DNA from: a virus
UHGV virus genome: UHGV-0070165
Reading direction: 5' to 3' (one strand)
DNA: 41,955 nucleotides
The first letter of the stretch is position 1, and each line of letters opens with the position of its first letter. Made by a program: the position numbers and the translations under genes. Shown here in pieces: positions 4,423 to 40,546 of this stretch. The notes under the pieces were generated by a model. It saw nothing but the letters and a program-made list of their open reading frames with translations. It ran no database searches and was not told the DNA's origin.

Positions 4423-4719
4423 TTATACCTCTGAATCAATATCAACCTGGTGGTGAGCAATGGTTTCAACCATGTACCGGATGTGTTCCGCCATGCGCTC
4501 CTGAAACTCAACATCGTCATCAAATGCACGGGTAATGGCTTTTTTGCTGGCCCCGTGGCGTTGCAAATGATCGATGCATAGCGATTCAAACAGGTGCTGG
4601 GGCAGGCCTTTTTCCATGTCGTCTGCCAGTTCTGCCTCTTTCTCTTCACGGGCGATCTGCTGGTAGTGACGCGCCCAGCTCTGAGCCTCAAGACGATCCT
4701 GAATGTAATAAGCGTTCAT
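4423..4719 (-). CDS. gam: Gam, RecBCD inhibitor (98 aa GamS form)
   Basis: Sequence [21 protein letters not shown]... matches lambda GamS; in-frame stop codons lie upstream of the ATG. Confidence 0.9.
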
Positions 4720-4794
4720 GGCTGAACTCCTGAAAATGGCTGTGAAAATATCGCCCGCGAAATGCCGGGCTGATTAGGAAAACAGGAAAGGGGA

Positions 4795-5001
4795 TTAGTG
4801 ATTGAGGCCGTTACCGCGTCCGTCGAGAAAAACTTCCACGAGCAAATCACGGGTATAAGTGCGCTCGATGCCGCGATGCAGATAAAGCCGTCCGCGTAAA
4901 TTAGCTGATGCAGTCCAGGTACCATCTTTGTGTTTGACCAGCATGCCTGGCATGACCGCACCGCGATTAACGGTCTGCGTTCCGTAATGTTGATGAACCA
5001 T
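4795..5001 (-). CDS. Small hypothetical protein (68 aa) at the kil position; the longer tracked ORF begins with TTG and is probably not real
   Basis: ATG preceded by AGGAG at about 5 nt spacing; first gene downstream of the putative leftward promoter. Confidence 0.4.
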
Positions 5002-5278
5002 AAAAACTCCTGCCCGTAAGCTGGGCTGCTGAACATATAGAGACTTCTGCGCGTATTCAGGCGGTGGATGGCCGCCGGTTGTCATAACTAAGCCGCCTCG
5101 TTGAAGCGACTGAGGTATAAAGTGTTGTGTTGATTTCAGCTGGTCACACCGACGTTCACGCGTCCGTTTCACCCCTCGCACTCCCCGAAGCCTGCTGAAA
5201 TTCAAACTGCGGATCTAAGCGGTCATCGCAACGGTGAAACAGGTGGTTATCGTATCGTTGTGTCGTTGCGATGAATTT

Positions 5279-5352
5279 ATTTAAAACTATAGTTGTTTTA
5301 TCGTCAACAACAAAAGTTGTTTTATCGGTTGTTTTTAATATAACTGGTTGTA
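5279..5352 (-). promoter_or_regulatory. Putative leftward early promoter (pL-like) with operator repeats
   Basis: Minus strand reads TTGTTGTTGACG-17 nt-TTAAAT, closely resembling the rightward promoter TGGTTGTTGACT-17 nt-TAATCT; GTTGTT/AACAAC half-sites repeated, including the near-direct repeat AGTTGTTTTATCG at 5291-5304 and 5315-5328. Confidence 0.55.
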
Positions 5353-5442
5353 TTTAGGATGGATTTATTTTGTGACTTGCATCGCATAGCGATAACTGAA
5401 GTGAGGTGTGGTGGTTTTTTGGACGGTATGAGTTATGAGGGG

Positions 5443-5474
5443 GAGGAAAAGAAAACCCGGCGCGGTTGCCGGGT
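5443..5474 (-). terminator. Rho-independent terminator downstream of the lipoprotein gene
   Basis: On the minus strand, hairpin ACCCGGC-loop-GCCGGGT followed by TTTTCTTTTCC. Confidence 0.6.
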
Positions 5475-5481
5475 ATGATTA

Positions 5482-5862
5482 TCAGTCAGCCCAACCTGAT
5501 TTCGAGTTTATTTGGGTTTCTGACATTGTGTATTTCTTAATCGTGTCATCGTTAAAAAGAATAGTAAGTTCTTTTTTCGTACCGTTCGTTCCATTATGGA
5601 ATAATCCATAGAATGGAATAAAAGTGGTGCCATTCACTTTTACTTTTGCAAAGGCGTACTTCCAGATCTCGTTTCCACTGTCAGTATATGAAACAGCATC
5701 AGGAGAACCAAAGTAAGATTTAACCTCATTCTTGGTTGTTTTACCTTCCTGAAGTTTAGACTGGACACTAATTTCAGTTTCATTTTTGAGTTGCTGGTTG
5801 CCTGAAGAAGCACACCCAGCCAATACAGATGCCATCATGGCAGCGATTAGGATTTTTCTCAT
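5482..5862 (-). CDS. Predicted lipoprotein (signal peptide with LAGC lipobox)
   Basis: N-terminus MRKILIAAMMASVLAGC; TATAAT-like box about 20 nt upstream; own terminator downstream; lies downstream of cI where lambda carries rexAB. Confidence 0.7.
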   Translation of the reverse strand: MRKILIAAMMASVLAGCASSGNQQLKNETEISVQSKLQEGKTTKNEVKSYFGSPDAVSYTDSGNEIWKYAFAKVKVNGTTFIPFYGLFHNGTNGTKKELTILFNDDTIKKYTMSETQINSKSGWAD

Positions 5863-6091
5863 TTTATGTTTCCATTCATTATAATCAGAAACATCTTAAC
5901 ATAATGATTCGAAATAAAAACCGCTACGAGATAGGGGGACATTTTGCTGACAGTAGCAACAAATCTCAGCTAACAACGAGAATATTTACTGAAATATGCA
6001 AACAGATTTGGCGTTCTTATAGAGAATTTAGTGCAATATCTAATCCGAGTGGTATAAACCTTAACCTTCGCTCCCTTAAGTCGTAGATAAA

Positions 6092-6781
6092 TTAACCATG
6101 CTTCCTGTACGTCTGCGGCATGCTTCCAATGACCTTACCGAATATGAACACCCGGTTCATCTCGTCTTTCTCGATCGGGTCCCACGGCGAGTAGCTCTTG
6201 TTATCAGAGATAACCAGCAGCTTATCCTTCATCATTTGAAGACGTTTTACATGGGCAGTGTCGTCGTACAGAAACGCATAGATGCCATCACCGTCGAAAG
6301 ATTTAACAGTGATATCAACGAACAGCAGGTCACCTGGTTCGATCGTCCCTGACATGCTGTCACCTCGCACGTTAATGATGCGGATATTTTCCGCCTTCCT
6401 GCCATCGAACATGTGACGAGCATCGTCAAACGAGTACTCAACCGAGCGTAGAACTTCTACAAACTCACGGTTGATTACACCTGGCCCGGCACTGACTTCT
6501 ATATCAAGAACGTCAATTTTGAAGTATTTGGAATGGCTGACAGTTGATTGTATTGGTTGCACTGTACTGTCTGACATATTTCCAACGCCAGAAGATAACC
6601 ATTCTGCGCGTACACCCAAAGCGTTCGCGATCTCCACGATTTTAGTTGTTTGGTTAGCTTTCCCTGTTTCGATTTTCTGAATAGCAGCCTGGCTAACCCC
6701 GACCAAATCCCCAAGCGCCTTTTGTGTAAGGCCTCGCGCTAATCTGGCTTCTTTAAGTCTTTCTGAGAGTGTTGTTTTCAT
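6092..6781 (-). CDS. cI: CI-type prophage repressor (N-terminal HTH, C-terminal LexA-like S24 autopeptidase)
   Basis: 229 aa; HTH near LTQKALGDLVGVSQAAIQKIE; Ala-Gly cleavage site (SAGPG); Ser (GDSM) and Lys (VKRL) catalytic dyad motifs; divergent from cro. Confidence 0.85.
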   Translation of the reverse strand: MKTTLSERLKEARLARGLTQKALGDLVGVSQAAIQKIETGKANQTTKIVEIANALGVRAEWLSSGVGNMSDSTVQPIQSTVSHSKYFKIDVLDIEVSAGPGVINREFVEVLRSVEYSFDDARHMFDGRKAENIRIINVRGDSMSGTIEPGDLLFVDITVKSFDGDGIYAFLYDDTAHVKRLQMMKDKLLVISDNKSYSPWDPIEKDEMNRVFIFGKVIGSMPQTYRKHG

Positions 6782-6822
6782 AGATCAAATGTACAACCAA
6801 GGTTTTATTTCATCAAACGAAA

Positions 6823-6858
6823 ATGGTTGTTGACTAAAAACAACCATAGTTTTAATCT
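6823..6858 (+). promoter_or_regulatory. Rightward promoter (pR-like) with overlapping operator palindrome
   Basis: ATGGTTGTT-GACTAAA-AACAACCAT is a perfect 9 bp inverted repeat overlapping TTGACT (-35); TAATCT lies 17 nt downstream; sits between cI and cro. Confidence 0.6.
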
Positions 6859-6885
6859 TGATTCGGATTAACCGCGGAGGTTGTT

Positions 6886-7116
6886 ATGAACCCAGCAATC
6901 AAAACAGCGATCAATATCGTTGGTTCACAAAAGAAACTAGGCGATGCCTGCGAAGTTTCACAGCAGGCCGTCTATAAGTGGCTTCACAACAAAGCAAAGG
7001 TATCCCCTGAACATGTCGGCAGCATTGTTACGGCTACTGGTGGAGTTGTGAAGGCATACCAGATTCGCCCGGATCTTCCGAAGTTGTTTCCACACACCGA
7101 AAAGAACGCAGCTTAA
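6886..7116 (+). CDS. cro: Cro-like HTH repressor
   Basis: 76 aa; GGAGG Shine-Dalgarno; HTH (QKKLGDACEVSQQAVYKW); transcribed divergently from cI. Confidence 0.8.
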   Translation: MNPAIKTAINIVGSQKKLGDACEVSQQAVYKWLHNKAKVSPEHVGSIVTATGGVVKAYQIRPDLPKLFPHTEKNAA

Positions 7117-7128
7117 ATTTCCATTTCA

Positions 7129-7141
7129 CGCTCTTTAACAA
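7129..7141 (+). promoter_or_regulatory. boxA-like element (rrn-type consensus) at the nutR position
   Basis: CGCTCTTTAACAA, 12 nt after the cro stop, matches the recalled rrn/lambdoid boxA consensus GCTCTTTAACAA; no obvious boxB hairpin follows. Confidence 0.45.
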
Positions 7142-7185
7142 TAAGCAATCAACTTAACAGTCAATTCAAACTAAAGGAGTCAATT

Positions 7186-7725
7186 ATGCAACCACTTACA
7201 TACCAACAGACTAGCGAATTTATTCCGACTGCGGTGATAAATCGTTCTCAAACAAAACAAGCTCCAGGCCACGAAAAAATCCGTGATGCCGTCCGCGCCT
7301 GGTCGGCTGTAGATAATCAGGATGTCGTTGCCGCACTCATTGTGAATGAGTATCGGGAGCAGGGCGACGGCACCATCGATTTCCCTGATGATGTCAGCCG
7401 TGCACGCCAGAAGCTGTTCCGCTTCCTCGATAACAAATTCGATTCTGAAAAATACCGAAATAACGTGCGTGAACTGACCCCGGCAATTCTGGCGGTACTA
7501 CCGCTGGAATATCGCGGTTACCTGGTTGAGCTGGATAGCTTCATGACTCGGTTGGCTGAAATGGAAAAGGAACTCAGTGAGGCAAAACAGGCTGTCATTC
7601 TCAACGCACCACGCCACCAGAAACTGAAGGAAATGAGTGAAGGTATTGTGTCGATGTTTCGTGTGGACCCGGATCTGGCTGGTCCATTAATGGCGATGGT
7701 GACCACCATGCTGGGGGCAATATGA
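7186..7725 (+). CDS. YdaT-like protein occupying the cII position
   Basis: 179 aa; AAGGAG Shine-Dalgarno; segment ELTPAILAVLPLEYRGYL resembles the Rac prophage YdaT family as recalled. Confidence 0.5.
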   Translation: MQPLTYQQTSEFIPTAVINRSQTKQAPGHEKIRDAVRAWSAVDNQDVVAALIVNEYREQGDGTIDFPDDVSRARQKLFRFLDNKFDSEKYRNNVRELTPAILAVLPLEYRGYLVELDSFMTRLAEMEKELSEAKQAVILNAPRHQKLKEMSEGIVSMFRVDPDLAGPLMAMVTTMLGAI

Positions 7726-9738: not shown

Positions 9739-9805
9739 TGAAACAGGTGAGTTGAGTTCAAACTGTAGTACAATTCTCTCCAGTTTGAACAGGAAAGAAT
9801 ATGCT

Positions 9806-10138
9806 ATGAACCCTTATATTTATCTTGGTGGTGCAATACTTGCAGAGGTCATTGGTACAACCTTAATGAAGTTTTCAGAAGGTTTTACACGGTTATGGCC
9901 ATCTGTTGGTACAATTATTTGTTATTGTGCATCATTCTGGTTATTAGCTCAGACGCTGGCTTATATTCCTACAGGGATTGCTTATGCTATCTGGTCAGGA
10001 GTCGGTATTGTCCTGATTAGCTTACTGTCATGGGGATTTTTCGGCCAACGGCTGGACCTGCCAGCCATTATAGGCATGATGTTGATTTGTGCCGGTGTGT
10101 TGATTATTAATTTATTGTCACGAAGCACACCACATTAA
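9806..10138 (+). CDS. emrE: Small multidrug resistance efflux transporter EmrE
   Basis: 110 aa from MNPYIYLGGAILAEVIGTTLMKFSEGF...; four predicted transmembrane helices; recognised as E. coli EmrE. Confidence 0.95.
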   Translation: MNPYIYLGGAILAEVIGTTLMKFSEGFTRLWPSVGTIICYCASFWLLAQTLAYIPTGIAYAIWSGVGIVLISLLSWGFFGQRLDLPAIIGMMLICAGVLIINLLSRSTPH

Positions 10139-10392: not shown

Positions 10393-11919
10393 ATGAAAAA
10401 AGCCATAGCATATATGCGATTTTCATCACCAGGTCAGATGTCTGGCGACTCATTAAACCGACAGAGAAGACTTATTGCTGAATGGTTAAAGGTAAATAGT
10501 GATTATTATCTTGATACCATAACATATGAAGATTTAGGATTAAGTGCATTCAAAGGAAAGCATGCACAATCAGGAGCTTTTTCGGAATTTTTAGATGCTA
10601 TAGAGCATGGTTATATATTGCCAGGAACTACATTGTTAGTTGAAAGTCTGGACAGACTTTCAAGAGAAAAAGTCGGTGAAGCGATTGAACGTCTGAAATT
10701 GATTTTGAATCACGGTATTGATGTTATAACTCTTTGCGACAATACAGTCTATAATATTGACTCTTTGAATGAGCCATATTCATTAATAAAAGCCATACTT
10801 ATAGCACAAAGGGCAAATGAAGAAAGCGAGATAAAGTCAAGTCGGGTTAAATTATCATGGAAGAAAAAACGGCAGGATGCACTGGAATCAGGTACGATTA
10901 TGACGGCGTCTTGTCCGAGATGGCTCTCCTTAGATGACAAAAGAACGGCTTTTGTTCCAGACCCCGACAGGGTGAAAACTATTGAGCTAATTTTTAAACT
11001 CAGGATGGAAAGGCGCTCATTGAATGCAATAGCCAAGTATTTAAATGATCATGCTGTAAAGAATTTCTCAGGAAAAGAAAGTGCATGGGGACCTTCTGTA
11101 ATTGAAAAATTATTAGCGAATAAAGCTCTGATAGGTATATGCGTACCTTCATATCGTGCAAGAGGGAAAGGGATAAGTGAAATCGCTGGCTATTATCCCA
11201 GAGTCATATCAGATGATTTGTTTTACGCTGTACAGGAAATTCGGTTGGCACCTTTTGGTATTAGCAATAGTAGCAAGAATCCTATGCTAATAAATCTACT
11301 TCGAACAGTTATGAAGTGTGAGGCTTGTGGTAATACCATGATTGTTCATGCGGTATCTGGAAGTTTGCATGGCTATTATGTTTGTCCGATGAGAAGATTA
11401 CATCGATGTGACAGGCCATCAATAAAAAGAGATTTGGTTGATTATAATATCATTAATGAATTGCTTTTTAATTGTAGCAAAATTCAACCAGTTGAAAACA
11501 AGAAAGATGCTAATGAAACTTTAGAGTTAAAAATTATTGAGCTTCAGATGAAAATTAATAATTTAATCGTTGCATTGTCTGTCGCGCCTGAAGTTACCGC
11601 TATAGCAGAGAAAATAAGACTATTAGATAAGGAATTACGAAGGGCTTCGGTATCATTGAAAACTTTGAAGAGTAAAGGTGTAAATTCATTCAGTGATTTT
11701 TATGCTATTGACTTAACCAGTAAAAATGGACGAGAGTTATGCCGTACACTTGCCTATAAAACATTCGAAAAAATCATAATTAATACGGATAATAAAACCT
11801 GTGATATCTATTTTATGAATGGCATTGTTTTTAAACACTATCCTTTAATGAAAGTAATATCCGCCCAGCAGGCGATAAGTGCTCTCAAATATATGGTTGA
11901 TGGTGAGATTTATTTCTAA
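10393..11919 (+). CDS. ybcK: Large serine recombinase (resolvase/invertase-type catalytic domain plus recombinase and zinc-ribbon domains)
   Basis: 508 aa; N-terminus AIAYMRFSSPGQ...RQ with the catalytic-serine motif; Cys-rich CEACGN...CPMRRLHRCD; AT-rich codon usage. Confidence 0.85.
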   Translation: MKKAIAYMRFSSPGQMSGDSLNRQRRLIAEWLKVNSDYYLDTITYEDLGLSAFKGKHAQSGAFSEFLDAIEHGYILPGTTLLVESLDRLSREKVGEAIERLKLILNHGIDVITLCDNTVYNIDSLNEPYSLIKAILIAQRANEESEIKSSRVKLSWKKKRQDALESGTIMTASCPRWLSLDDKRTAFVPDPDRVKTIELIFKLRMERRSLNAIAKYLNDHAVKNFSGKESAWGPSVIEKLLANKALIGICVPSYRARGKGISEIAGYYPRVISDDLFYAVQEIRLAPFGISNSSKNPMLINLLRTVMKCEACGNTMIVHAVSGSLHGYYVCPMRRLHRCDRPSIKRDLVDYNIINELLFNCSKIQPVENKKDANETLELKIIELQMKINNLIVALSVAPEVTAIAEKIRLLDKELRRASVSLKTLKSKGVNSFSDFYAIDLTSKNGRELCRTLAYKTFEKIIINTDNKTCDIYFMNGIVFKHYPLMKVISAQQAISALKYMVDGEIYF

Positions 11920-12383: not shown

Positions 12384-12935
12384 ATGAAAACACTTATCGT
12401 TTCAACTGTATTGGCATTCATAACATTTTCTGCGCAGGCTGCAGCATTTCAGGTCACTAGTAATGAAATAAAAACAGGAGAGCAACTTACAACGTCTCAT
12501 GTCTTTTCTGGATTTGGGTGTGAAGGTGGTAATACATCGCCCTCATTAACCTGGTCTGGTGTTCCTGAAGGTACCAAAAGCTTTGCCGTAACTGTATATG
12601 ATCCAGATGCACCTACAGGCAGTGGTTGGTGGCATTGGACTGTTGTTAATATTCCAGCAACAGTAACATATTTGCCCGTTGATGCAGGGAGACGTGATGG
12701 AACAAAACTGCCGACTGGTGCTGTTCAAGGCCGAAATGATTTTGGCTATGCTGGGTTTGGTGGCGCATGTCCTCCTAAAGGAGATAAACCACATCATTAC
12801 CAGTTTAAAGTATGGGCTCTAAAAACTGAAAAGATTCCTGTAGATTCTAACTCCAGCGGAGCGTTAGTTGGTTATATGCTTAATGCTAATAAAATCGCAA
12901 CCGCTGAGATAACACCAGTTTATGAGATAAAGTAG
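12384..12935 (+). CDS. ybcL: Secreted PEBP/RKIP-family (YbhB/YbcL) protein
   Basis: 183 aa; signal peptide ending AQA; recognised as DLP12 YbcL. Confidence 0.85.
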   Translation: MKTLIVSTVLAFITFSAQAAAFQVTSNEIKTGEQLTTSHVFSGFGCEGGNTSPSLTWSGVPEGTKSFAVTVYDPDAPTGSGWWHWTVVNIPATVTYLPVDAGRRDGTKLPTGAVQGRNDFGYAGFGGACPPKGDKPHHYQFKVWALKTEKIPVDSNSSGALVGYMLNANKIATAEITPVYEIK

Positions 12936-12944
12936 GGTGAGAGT

Positions 12945-13742
12945 ATGCTGGCAAGAGGTAAGACTAACTTAAAGATCGAAGAAATACGGATGCATAAACA
13001 TCATGAGATTCATAGGGTTAAGCCTCTTATGCCAGCTTTGTGTCGTATCCGTCAGGGAAAGAAAGTTATCAATTGGGAGACGCATACTTTAACTGTTGAT
13101 AATAATCAAATAATATTATTTCCTTGTGGTTATGAATTTTATATTGAGAATTATCCTGAAGCAGGGCTTTATCTTGCAGAAATGCTTTACTTACCCATTG
13201 ATTTAATTGAGAGTTTCCAAAAACTTTATACGGTAACTGATCAAATACGTAACAAAACAAGTTTCTTTTTACCTCAGAATCCTGAGTTAATATATTGTTG
13301 GGAGCAACTAAAAACATCTGTTTCCCGAGGCTTCTCAACTAAAATTCAGGAGCACTTAGCAATGGGCGTTCTACTTTCGTTAGGAGTGAATCATGTTAAT
13401 CATTTACTTTTATCATATAGTAAACAATCATTGATAAGTCGTTGTTATAACCTGCTGCTATCCGAACCCGGCACAAAATGGACAGCAAACAAGGTTGCTC
13501 GATATCTCTACATTTCTGTTTCTACATTACATCGCCGTCTAGCAAGCGAGGGGGTAAGTTTCCAAAGTATACTGGACGATGTGAGGTTAAATAATGCGTT
13601 GTCTGCTATACAAACGACGGTAAAACCTATAAGCGAGATTGCCAGAGAAAATGGTTATAAGTGTCCTTCTCGTTTTACTGAAAGATTTCATAATCGTTTT
13701 AATATAACACCAAGAGAGATAAGAAAAGCTTCCAGAGAGTAA
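12945..13742 (+). CDS. ybcM: AraC-family transcriptional regulator
   Basis: 265 aa; C-terminal AraC-type HTH (…[21 protein letters not shown]…[24 protein letters not shown]). Confidence 0.8.
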
Positions 13743-16019: not shown

Positions 16020-17117
16020 TTAGAACTGGTAAACCAGACCTACAGCAACGATGTCATCAGTGCTTACACCGAGTGCTTTAGTGAAGTCATTTTTGTCAAG
16101 CAGGTTGATTTTGTAATCAACGAAAGTAGACATATTTTTGTTGAAGTAATAGGTTGCACCTACATCAACATATTTGACTAAGTCCTGATCGCCCCATACT
16201 CCAAGATCCTTACCTTTAGATTGCAGGTAAGCAACGGACGGACGCAGACCGAAATCGAACTGATATTGTGCAACAGCTTCGAAGTTTTGGGCTTTATTAG
16301 CAACGAAGTGATCAGCAAATACAGTCATATTCTGGGTTTCAGAATAGGTAGTGGCCAGGTAAATGTTGTTAGCGTCATATTTCAGACCTGCGGCCCAAAC
16401 TTCTGCATTTTTACCGGAAGCAAATACTTCAGGAAGAACTTTCCCTGCATTAACTTGAGTGTCGGTACGATCAGATTTCGCATAAGTTGCACCGATACCG
16501 AATCCTTCGTATTCATAGGTAGCAGAGAAACCGAAGCCATCACCGTTACCTTCAGTGTAGTTATCGAAATCGCTACGATCGTTTTTGCCTTGGTACTGAG
16601 CAGCAAAGTTCAGACCATCAACCAGACCAAAGAAGTCGTTGTTACGATAGGTTGCAACACCAGTTGCACGTTGAGTCATGAACACGTCGGTTTGAGTCCA
16701 AGTGTCACCACCGAATTCTGGCAGGACGTCAGTCCACGCACCGATGTCGTATGCTACACCGTAGTTACGGCCGTAATCGATGGAGCCGTAGTCACCGAAT
16801 TTCAGGCCAGCGAAGGCAAGACGGGTTTTATCTTTGGAGGAACCTTGAGATTCAGCGCGGTTGCCTTTGAATTCATATTCCCACTGACCGAAACCAGTCA
16901 GTTGATCGTTGATTTGGGTTTCACCTTTGAAGCCAAGACGGGCATAAGTAGTATCACCATCATCTGCATCATTAGAGGAGAAGTAGTGCTTAGCATTAAC
17001 TTTCCCGTACAGATCCAGCTTGTTACTGTCTTTATTATAAATTTCAGCTGCCTGAGCAGACATCGCCATCAGTACTGATGCAGCTACAGCAGAAATTGCC
17101 ACTGTTAATTTTTTCAT
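16020..17117 (-). CDS. nmpC: OmpC/OmpF-family general porin (NmpC/Lc-like), intact; start set at [11 protein letters not shown]
   Basis: Signal peptide ending SAQA; C-terminal F (…VGLVYQF) typical of outer-membrane beta-barrels; convergent to the late operon. Confidence 0.9.
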
Positions 17118-17544
17118 CGTGAGCCCTTTTTTTGAACTATTATTAAAAAATGATGTCACTGCGCGATAAATATTCATCTAATCAATGTGATTATTTCAAG
17201 ATGTAAGTTTTGGTTTCTCGTTTGATTTGTGAAGTAGATCTCTATTTTTATCTGAACTTTTTTCTATCGAATCCTATTCATGGCTCTTGGCTGAATAAAA
17301 ATAAATCTATTAGCCAATTTATATTAACGGCTGTTATTTATAAGTGCTCTATAATTTTAAGGTTCAATTTAAACCGGCTAAAAATAACACTGGAAATTAT
17401 TTGTTGGTTATTTGTTGAGATTTGCTTATGTATTTGTAGTGGTGTTTTCAATACTCGGTAGCATTCTCGCAAATATCATTTAGTGGTTTACGTACGTAAA
17501 AAATTGGTTATGCTGTTAAGAGTGGTTACTTCGTCACACAGCTT

Positions 17545-39946: not shown

Positions 39947-40546
39947 ATGCGTAAACTTTATGCCGCCATTTTGTCCGCAGCCATTTGTCTGGCCGTATCC
40001 GGTGCGCCTGCATGGGCGTCTGAACATCAGTCCACGCTGAGCGCGGGGTATCTTCATGCCCGGACGAACGTTCCCGGCAGTGATGATCTGAACGGGATTA
40101 ACGTGAAATACCGTTATGAGTTTACGGACACACTGGGGATGGTGACGTCGTTCAGCTATGCAGGAGACAAGAATCGCCAGCTGACCCGTTACAGCGATAC
40201 CCGCTGGTATGAAGATTCCGTGCGTAACCGCTGGTTCAGCGTGATGGCGGGGCCGTCTGTACGCGTGAATGAATGGTTCAGCGCGTATGCGATGGCGGGT
40301 GTGGCTTACAGCCGTGTGTCGACTTTTTCCGGGGATTATATCCGCGTAACTGACAATAAGGGGAAAACGCACGATGTGCTGACCGGAAGTGATGACGGTC
40401 GCCACAGCAACACGTCTCTGGTGTGGGGGGCTGGCGTGCAGTTTAACCCGACCGAATCCGTGGCCATTGATGTCGCTTATGAAGGCTCCGGCAGTGGTGA
40501 CTGGCGCACTGACGGGTTCATCGTGGGTGTTGGTTATAAATTCTGA
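39947..40546 (+). CDS. lom: Outer-membrane beta-barrel protein Lom (Ail/Lom family)
   Basis: 199 aa; signal peptide; C-terminal YKF; recognised as lambda Lom. Confidence 0.9.
   Translation: MRKLYAAILSAAICLAVSGAPAWASEHQSTLSAGYLHARTNVPGSDDLNGINVKYRYEFTDTLGMVTSFSYAGDKNRQLTRYSDTRWYEDSVRNRWFSVMAGPSVRVNEWFSAYAMAGVAYSRVSTFSGDYIRVTDNKGKTHDVLTGSDDGRHSNTSLVWGAGVQFNPTESVAIDVAYEGSGSGDWRTDGFIVGVGYKF

What the first reader, a model, noticed from the sequence alone, without database searches (positions are those of the whole stretch)
5443..6091. Self-contained lipoprotein gene downstream of cI, where lambda carries rexAB
The 126 aa predicted lipoprotein (lipobox LAGC) lies directly downstream of cI on the same strand. 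It has a TATAAT-like box about 20 nt upstream of its ATG and its own rho-independent terminator (5443-5474). Genes at this position in lambdoid phages are typically expressed in the lysogen and mediate exclusion or lysogenic conversion. This one is a candidate superinfection-exclusion or envelope-modifying lipoprotein. The family could not be assigned by eye.
Basis: partly seen in the sequence, partly recalled or inferred. Interest (0 to 1): 0.55.

Follow-up and report, generated by a model that had tools for sequence, protein, structure and literature searches.

The report
Prophage BamE-fold lipoprotein cassette beside cI
A small, low-GC gene cassette between the repressor gene and the terminator of a lambda-like E. 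coli prophage encodes a lipoprotein, predicted to be in the outer membrane, that is folded like the host protein BamE; it belongs to a widespread prophage add-on family whose function nobody has tested, and its most plausible role is protecting the lysogen at the cell envelope.

Summary
The ORF is real. Window 5482-5862 (-) encodes a 126-aa lipoprotein (lipobox LAGC, Cys17, Ala at +2) under strong purifying selection. It lies between OL (5281-5329) and OR (6812-6855), 229 bp downstream of cI, which is the rexAB-equivalent position.

It is part of a 619-bp, 36%-GC cassette (about 5474-6092). The otherwise near-identical phage PhiR34_1 lacks the cassette. About 1520 E. coli genomes carry this cI, but only 69-78 carry the cassette.

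- The terminator (5455-5474) is also the cI terminator in phages that lack the cassette.
- The TATAAT (5883-5878) lies only 15 nt from the ATG and is not conserved. A conserved extended -10 (TGtTAAGAT, 5901-5893) is the better promoter candidate.

Close relatives sit in two prophage add-on slots: after CI repressors, and before the tape-measure gene (the HK97 gp15 slot). Distant relatives are lone chromosomal genes.

No function is published in the library searched. Envelope-level superinfection exclusion is my best guess (about 0.4) and is untested.

The parts
5482..5862 (-). Coding sequence of the 126-aa BamE-fold lipoprotein (PHROG 3135; PGAP 'SEN1984 family lipoprotein')
   Evidence: ORF. 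phrog_3135 matches at E 2.9e-48 over the full length. An identical cassette is annotated WP_001226568.1 'SEN1984 family lipoprotein'. Purifying selection shown.
5815..5862 (-). Signal peptide (residues 1-16: MRK, a hydrophobic core, and the lipobox LAG); the lipidated Cys17 codon follows at 5812-5814
   Evidence: Read from the sequence. A simple lipobox pattern was found in 121 of 150 family representatives. Cys17 is invariant in alignments A1, A2 and A10. The +2 residue is Ala.
5575..5628 (-). Codons for residues 79-96, the tip of a long beta-hairpin carrying the family signature FIPFYGLFHNG; this segment is absent from BamE
   Evidence: F81, I82, P83, Y85, G86, F88, H89, N90 and G91 are invariant in the close family. 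P83 is nearly invariant in the wide family. hhalign places a roughly 14-residue insertion here relative to BamE. AlphaFold2 predicts strands 65-82 and 87-104 with a low-confidence tip.
5445..5474 (-). Intrinsic terminator (stem-loop 5474..5455 plus T-run). It ends both the cassette and the cI transcription unit.
   Evidence: Called by the terminator scan. The same hairpin follows cI in PhiR34_1, which lacks the cassette. It belongs to a terminator sequence family that also flanks the gene in S107.
5893..5901 (-). Candidate extended -10 promoter element TGtTAAGAT (predicted)
   Evidence: Conserved in S107 and Citrobacter copies and in front of an unrelated lipoprotein gene. In Citrobacter L005 the scan calls TTGACC-16-TAAGAT with a preceding TG. 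The window copy has only TTTTTA at the -35 position.
5878..5883 (-).
   Evidence: Present. Relatives have TGCAAT here. It lies 15 nt from the ATG, has no -35 and was not called by the scan on this strand.
5863..5907 (-). Portable leader/promoter block that travels with the gene
   Evidence: DNA homology to S107 and Citrobacter copies extends to 5907-5915. The same block precedes a phrog_7441 lipoprotein in S107 and in Cronobacter phage ENT47670.
5912..5938 (-). Degenerate remnant of an upstream terminator (CCCCCTATCTCGTAGCGG plus T-run) that can no longer form a stem
   Evidence: It aligns with intact terminators upstream of the gene in S107 and Citrobacter. No terminator was called between cI and the gene. 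The spacer RNA folds no better than shuffles (z -0.96).
5474..6092 (.). The 619-bp cassette that is present or absent among related phages; 36% GC
   Evidence: Homology to PhiR34_1 covers 4700-5473 and 6093-7200, and PhiR34_1 has 122 unrelated bp in between. GC content.
6092..6781 (-). cI repressor (HTH_3 + Peptidase_S24), the upstream gene of the presumed operon
   Evidence: Pfam matches. PhiR26_1 annotates it as cI.
5281..5329 (.). OL-type operator repeats (AACnAnAGTTGTTTT), with a PL-like -35 TTGACG between them
   Evidence: Direct repeats D1 and D3, and inverted matches I1, I2 and I5 to the OR region. The PL hexamers were read by eye.
6812..6855 (.). OR-type operator repeats between cI and cro
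   Evidence: The cro-like YdaS gene is at 6886-7116 (+).

Best explanation
What it is (confidence at least 0.9): a mobile add-on ('moron') cassette in the immunity region of a lambda-like prophage. It encodes a small lipoprotein that is secreted, lipidated at Cys17 and, because residue +2 is Ala, should be sorted by Lol to the inner leaflet of the outer membrane.

The mature domain has the BamE/SmpA-OmlA fold (two helices packed on a beta-sheet) on a short tether. It carries a family-specific long beta-hairpin whose tip, FIPFYGLFHNG, is invariant across Enterobacterales.

How it is expressed (inferred): in the lysogen, by read-through from the cI promoter, since no intact terminator lies between cI and the gene. 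A weak promoter of its own (extended -10 at 5901-5893) may add to this. Transcription ends at the shared terminator 5474-5455, just before OL/PL.

What it does (inferred, about 0.4; the confidence value given here refers to this functional claim): it protects the lysogen at the envelope. Held against the periplasmic face of the outer membrane, it would use the conserved hairpin to bind a conserved outer-membrane or periplasmic component that incoming phages need, such as a receptor barrel or the DNA-entry route. That would block adsorption or genome delivery. In outline this resembles Cor/Llp at FhuA or HK97 gp15, but uses an unrelated protein.

The phage probably recruited the gene from chromosomal stand-alone lipoproteins of the same family.
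For: Lipoprotein features: the signal peptide and lipobox are read directly from the sequence. Cys17 and a G21-N22 motif are conserved across the wide family.

Fold:
- Two AlphaFold2 models from different alignments have core pLDDT above 90.
- Foldseek's top six hits are all E. coli BamE chains at probability 1.00.
- hhalign of the family against BamE gives probability 92.7%.
- 82 of 101 distant members hit Pfam BamE.

Immunity-region position: operators lie on both sides of the gene.

Cassette status. The cI region is found in 1520 of 5426 E. coli genomes, the cassette in 69-78.

Recurrent linkage to repressors: an S24 CI-type repressor is the immediate neighbour in at least 21 of 57 IMG/VR contigs. 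The same holds in Citrobacter prophages and in Salmonella phage S107.

Second slot: the gene sits just before the tape-measure gene in Serratia, Klebsiella and others. That is where HK97 gene 15, a proven exclusion gene, lies (PMC3594210).

Sister phages carry other presumptive defence cargo in the same cI-downstream slot.

Autonomy of the gene: terminators on both sides in S107, and a promoter called in Citrobacter.

Strong purifying selection, with the hairpin invariant.

No conserved partner gene in 67 genomes, which fits a stand-alone protein.
Against: - No experiment or paper shows expression or any phenotype for this family. SEN1984 in the Salmonella island ROD21 is only predicted to be BamE-like (PMC10655114).
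- No PADLOC match.
- Similarity to Cor is confined to the signal peptide (E 0.066).
- The gene rides on phages with very different tails and hosts: lambda-like, Rac-like and S107-type (Erf recombinase) phages, plus Klebsiella, Serratia, Pseudomonas and Alteromonas phages. PhiR34_1 matches the first 25 kb of the window best yet lacks it. So, unlike cor with FhuA-binding tails, it is not tied to one receptor specificity.
- Distant homologues are chromosomal genes in housekeeping neighbourhoods, such as the atp operon in Moraxella. That points to a general envelope role rather than a phage-specific one.
- The promoter is weak by consensus, and the window copy lacks the -35.
- Outer-membrane sorting and the short tether are predictions.
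Confidence: 0.4

Rival explanations
1. Lysogenic-conversion fitness factor. The lipoprotein strengthens or alters the envelope for the host's benefit (barrier function, stress, serum or bile resistance), as lambda Bor and Lom do, and has no role against phages.
For: - Distant homologues are single chromosomal genes in many Pseudomonadota with no phage context.
- An Alcaligenaceae homologue sits beside two Lambda_Bor lipoprotein genes and autotransporter/YadA genes.
- A homologue-named family member, SEN1984, is on the Salmonella pathogenicity island ROD21.
- The same prophage already carries envelope cargo: emrE, a porin and lom.
- The fold relatives BamE and OsmE are envelope housekeeping or stress lipoproteins.
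Against: The two slots it occupies are best known for anti-phage cargo (PMC3594210). There is no phenotype evidence for either reading. Its spread on phages across many genera does not tell the two apart.
Confidence: 0.25
2. BAM-directed BamE surrogate or modulator. The phage protein docks on BamA/BamD in place of, or beside, host BamE. This would change outer-membrane protein assembly (for example receptor levels or RcsF signalling) or shield BamA from agents that use it.
For: The closest solved structures by two methods are E. coli BamE chains within BAM complexes. Profile homology to BamE is supported. The short lipid tether resembles that of BamE.
Against: - Only 24% identity to E. coli BamE, with E 0.016 in a two-sequence comparison.
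- Below the Pfam gathering score: 21.8 against 23.2 bits.
- No hit to the NCBIfam BamE equivalog.
- The BamE N-terminal segment 29-38 aligns to a gap or to unrelated residues, and the family has a roughly 14-residue hairpin insertion that BamE lacks.
- What is conserved is the fold core (G-x-P, W-x-Y, F103), not a known interface.
Confidence: 0.12
3. Periplasmic inhibitor or orphan immunity protein. Like other proteins of this fold (BLIP, Bacteroides T6SS immunity protein BtiO), it binds and neutralises an incoming enzyme, such as a T6SS effector, a bacteriocin, or a phage tail lysin.
Confidence: 0.12
4. It is simply BamE, as most RefSeq records name it ('outer membrane protein assembly factor BamE'), or an inert passenger gene.
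For: The PGAP product name in most E. coli genomes, and the sub-threshold Pfam BamE hit.
Against: It is an accessory prophage cassette present in 78 of 5426 genomes. It shares 24% identity with the real BamE. Newer PGAP runs rename it 'SEN1984 family lipoprotein'. An inert passenger is contradicted by dN/dS of about 0.05 and invariant motifs across genera.
Confidence: 0.03

Closest known systems
BamE (SmpA/OmlA), lipoprotein subunit of the BAM complex (Pfam PF04355; PDB 8adg_E, 9mgg_E)
   Different: 24% identity. Below the Pfam threshold and no NCBIfam BamE hit. It has a roughly 14-residue conserved hairpin insertion and a different N-terminal segment. It is an accessory prophage cassette, not the single-copy chromosomal gene. 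BAM binding is untested.
SEN1984 of the Salmonella Enteritidis island ROD21, and the PGAP 'SEN1984 family lipoprotein' / PHROG 3135
   Same: The same family name is applied to the identical E. coli protein. Both are small (SEN1984 is a 378-bp gene), both sit on a mobile element, and SEN1984 was also predicted to be BamE-like, by Phyre2 (PMC10655114). phrog_3135 matches over the full length.
   Different: SEN1984 sits on an excisable island among transfer genes, not in a phage immunity region. I could not retrieve its sequence to measure identity. Neither protein has a tested function.
Cor (phi80, N15) and Llp (T5): phage lipoproteins that inactivate the receptor FhuA
   Same: A small phage-encoded lipoprotein that could work the same way, by blocking a receptor from the periplasmic side of the outer membrane.
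   Different: No sequence relationship beyond the signal peptide. Cor and Llp go with FhuA-using phages, whereas this gene is not tied to one tail type. No exclusion phenotype is known for it.
HK97 gp15 moron (superinfection exclusion, blocks DNA entry)
   Same: Relatives of this gene occupy the same slot, between the tail-assembly chaperone genes and the tape-measure gene (PMC3594210). It has the same moron features and the same likely origin from a chromosomal envelope protein (YebO for gp15).
   Different: gp15 is a small inner-membrane protein with no similarity to this one. In the window the gene is in the immunity region, not the tail operon.
lambda rexA-rexB
   Same: Same map position: downstream of cI, inside OL-OR, ending at a terminator before PL. 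It is presumably co-transcribed with cI in lysogens.
   Different: Unrelated proteins. RexAB is a cytoplasmic/inner-membrane abortive-infection pair, whereas this is a single exported lipoprotein. No PADLOC hit.
lambda Bor (serum-resistance lipoprotein moron)
   Same: A prophage-expressed outer-membrane lipoprotein moron with homologues outside phages. One family member neighbours two Bor-family genes.
   Different: Different fold and family, and a different map position.

Membership tests
BamE orthologue (BAM complex subunit) | Match to curated models: Pfam PF04355 at or above the gathering score, and the NCBIfam BamE equivalog NF008585 | tested here: not met
   PF04355 scores 21.8 bits against a cut-off of 23.2. 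The window protein has no NF008585 hit at E<=1, and only 3 of 101 family members hit it weakly.
BamE orthologue (BAM complex subunit) | BamE fold (two helices packed on an antiparallel sheet) | tested here: met
BamE orthologue (BAM complex subunit) | Single-copy core chromosomal gene | tested here: not met
   Found in 78 of 5426 complete E. coli genomes. In every record listed it lies next to a phage repressor.
BamE orthologue (BAM complex subunit) | Binds BamD and BamA POTRA5; conserved interface residues (N-terminal segment around I32/Q34, recalled from memory) | tested here: inconclusive
   hhalign aligns BamE 29-38 to a gap or to unrelated residues. Binding itself cannot be tested with these tools.
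SmpA/OmlA (BamE-domain) superfamily | Profile-level homology to the domain | tested here: met
   82 of 101 family representatives hit PF04355 at E<=0.01, the best at 2.4e-11. hhalign probability 92.7%, E 4e-7.
PHROG 3135 / PGAP 'SEN1984 family lipoprotein' | Full-length match to the family model, and the curated product name on the identical protein | tested here: met
   phrog_3135 at E 2.9e-48 covers residues 1-124. WP_001226568.1 in the identical cassette is named 'SEN1984 family lipoprotein'. NCBIfam release 20 did not return that model.
Bacterial lipoprotein (signal peptidase II substrate) | Positively charged N-terminus, hydrophobic core, lipobox [LVI][ASTVI][GAS]C, conserved Cys | tested here: met
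   MRK, then ILIAAMMASV, then LAGC. Cys17 is invariant. A simple lipobox pattern was found in 121 of 150 representatives. Lipidation itself cannot be tested here.
Phage moron (Juhala/Hendrix definition, PMC3594210) | An extra gene absent from closely related phages | tested here: met
   PhiR34_1 and Turner lack the 619-bp segment. About 5% of E. coli genomes with this cI region have it.
Phage moron (Juhala/Hendrix definition, PMC3594210) | Base composition different from the flanking genes | tested here: met
   The cassette is 36% GC and the gene's GC3 is 0.36. The window is 51% GC and cI's GC3 is 0.51.
Phage moron (Juhala/Hendrix definition, PMC3594210) | Its own promoter and terminator; expressed from the repressed prophage | tested here: inconclusive
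   A terminator is present but shared with cI. A conserved extended -10 is predicted; a full promoter is called in Citrobacter, and S107 has terminators on both sides. Expression cannot be tested here.
Cor/Llp receptor-blocking exclusion lipoproteins | Sequence membership (phrog_1119; NCBIfam NF047972) | tested here: not met
   phrog_1119 at E 0.066 covers residues 1-29 only, the signal peptide. One of 101 relatives hits NF047972, at 0.0025.
Cor/Llp receptor-blocking exclusion lipoproteins | Exclusion phenotype through receptor inactivation | not testable with these tools
   Needs plaque and adsorption assays.
Known anti-phage defence systems (PADLOC-DB) | Match to any defence-protein model | tested here: not met
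   No families matched at E<=1.

The most novel reading that the evidence does not exclude
The BamE-fold lipoprotein is a new class of envelope-level superinfection-exclusion factor. Phages recruited it from chromosomal stand-alone lipoproteins. It uses its invariant aromatic hairpin to clamp a component conserved across Enterobacterales at the inner face of the outer membrane (BAM itself or receptor barrels), and so blocks genome delivery by many unrelated phages. It moves between phages as a terminator-flanked cassette with a portable promoter.
Probability: 0.3. Interest if true: 0.65.

Novelty: new member of a known kind. Interest (0 to 1): 0.45.

Why it matters
The cI-downstream slot and the slot before the tape-measure gene are places where temperate phages keep genes that act in the lysogen. 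This family fills both slots in many Enterobacterales prophages: 117 IMG/VR contigs and 78 complete E. coli genomes. It also gives its name to a gene on a Salmonella pathogenicity island. Yet it has no assigned function, and most RefSeq records mislabel it as BamE.

Showing what it does would annotate a common prophage gene. It would also correct a systematic misannotation. If it blocks phages, it would add a defence mechanism built on the BamE fold. The cassette anatomy, with a shared terminator family and a portable leader, also offers a concrete case of how such add-on genes move between phages.

Tried and rejected
- Sequence search of the PDB with the family profile found nothing meaningful.
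- PADLOC found nothing.
- NCBIfam gave only signal-peptide-level hits.
- Rfam found nothing in 5000-7300. The 229-nt spacer folds no better than shuffles, so there is no evidence for an RNA element.
- The antisense ORF 5829-6086 (+) was treated as spurious.
- The afdb50 fold library was unavailable.
- The BFVD viral fold search returned only other unannotated SmpA/OmlA phage lipoproteins.
- Literature searches found no functional study: BamE-like plus prophage; SmpA plus exclusion; OmlA plus moron; the phage name; and a six-term search on prophage lipoprotein exclusion plus BamE.
- A link to toxin-immunity or conjugation genes was looked for in neighbour-gene surveys and not found.
- The idea that the gene is tied to one tail or receptor type, as cor is, was rejected on its spread across unrelated phages and its absence from PhiR34_1.
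Full report
**1. The observation**

The minus strand of 5482-5862 holds an ATG-to-stop ORF of 126 codons. It begins MRKILIAAMMASVLAGC, a textbook lipoprotein signal peptide with lipobox LAGC and Cys17. The gene 229 bp upstream on the same strand (6092-6781) is a CI-type repressor with HTH_3 and Peptidase_S24 domains. It is followed, divergently, by cro-like (YdaS) and YdaT-like genes and by O and P.

A G+C-rich hairpin with a T-run lies at 5474-5445, and the terminator scan called it. A TATAAT hexamer lies at 5883-5878.

The gene is real. Against homologues in Salmonella, Citrobacter and Serratia prophages, synonymous sites are saturated (pS 0.72-0.99) while non-synonymous differences stay at 0.09-0.18. 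dN/dS is about 0.05 where it can be computed.

**2. Position**

Operator-like repeats (AACnAnAGTTGTTTT) at 5281-5329 are mirrored at 6812-6855 between cI and cro. The lipoprotein gene and cI therefore lie together between OL and OR. The terminator sits just upstream of the leftward early promoter region.

**3. A cassette, and what that means for 'self-contained'**

The region is 99.6% identical to Escherichia phage PhiR26_1, which annotates the gene as a putative lipoprotein. The phage that best matches the first 25 kb of the window, PhiR34_1 (89% coverage, 97.5% identity), lacks the gene.

Homology to PhiR34_1 runs from 4700 to 5473 and resumes at 6093. The left break is inside the terminator stem and the right break is at the cI stop codon. 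PhiR34_1 has 122 unrelated bp in place of the window's 619 bp.

The cassette is 36% GC, against 51% for the window. The cI-OR segment is found in 1520 of 5426 complete E. coli genomes at 80% coverage or more. The cassette is in only 69-78 of them.

So the terminator is not private to the gene. It is the terminator of the cI transcription unit in phages without the cassette. It belongs to a recognisable sequence family, CCCGGCnACCGnGCCGGG followed by a T-run. That family flanks the gene on both sides in Salmonella phage S107 and lies upstream of it in Citrobacter prophages.

In the window, the upstream copy (5938-5912) has decayed and can no longer pair. No terminator is predicted between cI and the gene. 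I infer that transcripts from the cI promoter read through into the lipoprotein gene.

**4. Promoter**

Relatives have TGCAAT at that position.

A better candidate is TGtTAAGAT at 5901-5893, an extended -10. It is conserved in S107 and Citrobacter copies. In Citrobacter the scan independently calls TTGACC-16-TAAGAT with a preceding TG, 31 nt before the ATG.

The same 40-45-nt block (window 5863-5907) also precedes an unrelated lipoprotein gene (phrog_7441) in the tail regions of S107 and Cronobacter phage ENT47670. It therefore behaves as a portable promoter/leader. The window copy has lost the -35. All of this is prediction.

**5. Family and fold**

The protein matches phrog_3135 (function unknown) over its full length, at E 2.9e-48. 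Most RefSeq records name it 'outer membrane protein assembly factor BamE'. A recent one names it 'SEN1984 family lipoprotein'. SEN1984 is an uncharacterised gene of the Salmonella Enteritidis island ROD21, predicted by Phyre2 to be BamE-like (PMC10655114, PMC3198454).

The Pfam BamE domain scores just under threshold for this protein (21.8 against 23.2 bits). However, 82 of 101 distant family members hit it, and the family profile aligns to E. coli BamE with 92.7% probability. I checked that BamE sequence against the PDB and it was identical.

It is nevertheless not BamE:
- Identity to E. coli BamE is 24%.
- There is no hit to the NCBIfam BamE equivalog.
- The N-terminal segment differs from that of BamE.
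- A hairpin insertion of about 14 residues, tipped by FIPFYGLFHNG, is absent from BamE. Nine of the eleven tip residues are invariant across Enterobacterales and the other two nearly so.

Residue +2 is Ala. By the E. coli sorting rule (Asp at +2 retains a lipoprotein in the inner membrane; established knowledge), the protein should go to the outer membrane.

**6. Distribution**

An exhaustive HMMER search found 1332 clusters (at 50% identity) with E<=1e-3. Most of the 150 best match a simple lipobox pattern (121 of 150), typically followed by C-[AS]-S-x-G-N.

In Enterobacterales the close relatives are on prophages, in two slots:
- Directly after a CI-type repressor. This was seen in 5 of 23 species genomes, in at least 21 of 57 IMG/VR contigs, in Citrobacter prophages and in S107.
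- Just before the tape-measure gene, in Serratia, Klebsiella and others. This is where the first described moron, HK97 gene 15, sits. HK97 gene 15 is a proven exclusion gene (PMC3594210).

Other phages carry the gene next to the integrase (Pseudomonas phage Lodos) or between head and tail genes (Alteromonas phage P24).

Distant relatives are single chromosomal genes with no conserved partner. In Moraxella the gene lies between atpG and atpD. In Pseudovibrio it lies near pheT. In an Alcaligenaceae genome it lies beside two Bor-family lipoprotein genes and adhesin genes.

**7. The slot**

Sister phages with the same cI family carry other cargo between cI and the terminator:
- nothing (PhiR34_1, Turner);
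- a HipA-like kinase pair (PhiR5_1);
- a 356-aa and a 124-aa protein (IdasGreatGrand);
- a 339-aa protein plus a 167-aa membrane protein (Perceval).

The slot is therefore a cargo hotspot of the kind that holds rexAB in lambda.

**8. Interpretation**

Shown here:
- a real, conserved lipoprotein gene;
- a BamE-type fold with a distinct conserved hairpin;
- a mobile low-GC cassette inside the immunity region;
- recurrent linkage to repressors, and to the slot before the tape-measure gene.

Inferred:
- expression in the lysogen, by cI read-through and/or its own weak promoter;
- outer-membrane localisation;
- function.

I rank the functions as follows:
- Envelope-level protection against superinfecting phages (about 0.4). 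Both slots are known for such genes, and a short-tethered outer-membrane lipoprotein with a conserved binding loop suits blocking a receptor or the DNA-entry route.
- A host-fitness envelope factor like Bor (0.25). This is favoured by the chromosomal homologues and by the lack of linkage to any one tail type.
- A BAM modulator (0.12).
- A BLIP/BtiO-like periplasmic inhibitor (0.12).

No published experiment was found that bears on any of these.

**9. Verdict**

It is, however, a member of a known kind: a prophage add-on lipoprotein in a family that databases already recognise and leave without a function. Interest is moderate. The gene is common, misannotated and easy to test. A BamE-fold exclusion factor would be new, but nothing here shows that it is one.

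Noticed in passing
window 5863-5907; L086 1501-1545 (Salmonella phage S107); L087 1501-1539 (Cronobacter phage ENT47670): The 40-45-nt leader/promoter block in front of the lipoprotein gene also precedes an unrelated 117-118-aa lipoprotein (phrog_7441, function unknown) in the tail region of two other phages. In ENT47670 that ORF is unannotated. It looks like a portable expression module for lipoprotein add-on genes.
   Followed up: partly
window 5455-5474 and 5912-5938; L003 3918-3935 and 4396-4413; L002 about 2650-2680: One terminator sequence family (CCCGGCnACCGnGCCGGG plus T-run) flanks the cassette on both sides in S107. It is the cI terminator in cassette-free PhiR34_1, and it is exactly where window/PhiR34_1 homology breaks. 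Terminators may serve as recombination joints for cassette exchange.
   Followed up: partly
L088 (PhiR5_1), L089 (IdasGreatGrand), L090 (Perceval), L002 (PhiR34_1): The slot between this cI family and its terminator is a cargo hotspot. It is empty in some phages and holds a HipA-like kinase pair, a 356-aa plus 124-aa pair, or a 339-aa protein plus a 167-aa membrane protein (an architecture like RexAB) in others. Apart from the HipA-like pair, the cargo proteins fall in PHROGs of unknown function.
   Followed up: partly
window 9752-10138, 10393-11919, 12384-12935, 12945-13742, 16020-17177, 39947-40546: The prophage carries DLP12-type cargo: an EmrE-like SMR transporter, a large serine recombinase, a PEBP (YbcL-like) protein, an AraC regulator, a porin and Lom. 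PhiR26_1 has PD-lambda-1 after ren, where the window has the emrE block.
   Followed up: no
L062, L063, L065, L072, L082 (Moraxella spp. and one MAG), about 5001-5381: A bona fide homologue (lipobox AVGC, ASTGN, FTDSGNEIWTY, NFIP) sits inside the ATP synthase operon, between atpG and atpD.
   Followed up: partly
L015/L016 (Alcaligenaceae MAG), 5074-6390: A 46%-identical homologue lies directly after two Lambda_Bor-family lipoprotein genes and next to autotransporter and YadA adhesin genes.
   Followed up: no
P0099; window 5829-6086 (+): One database protein is a chimera. Its first 30 residues equal part of the antisense ORF of the spacer, and the rest is the lipoprotein from residue 31 onward. 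It could be an inversion variant or an assembly artefact on a 679-bp contig.
   Followed up: no
window 4795-5205 (-) and 5206-5454: Leftward of OL the first gene is Kil-like (phrog_294 covers residues 59-135 only). I saw no N-type antiterminator gene between the PL region and kil, although S107 has N in the equivalent place.
   Followed up: no
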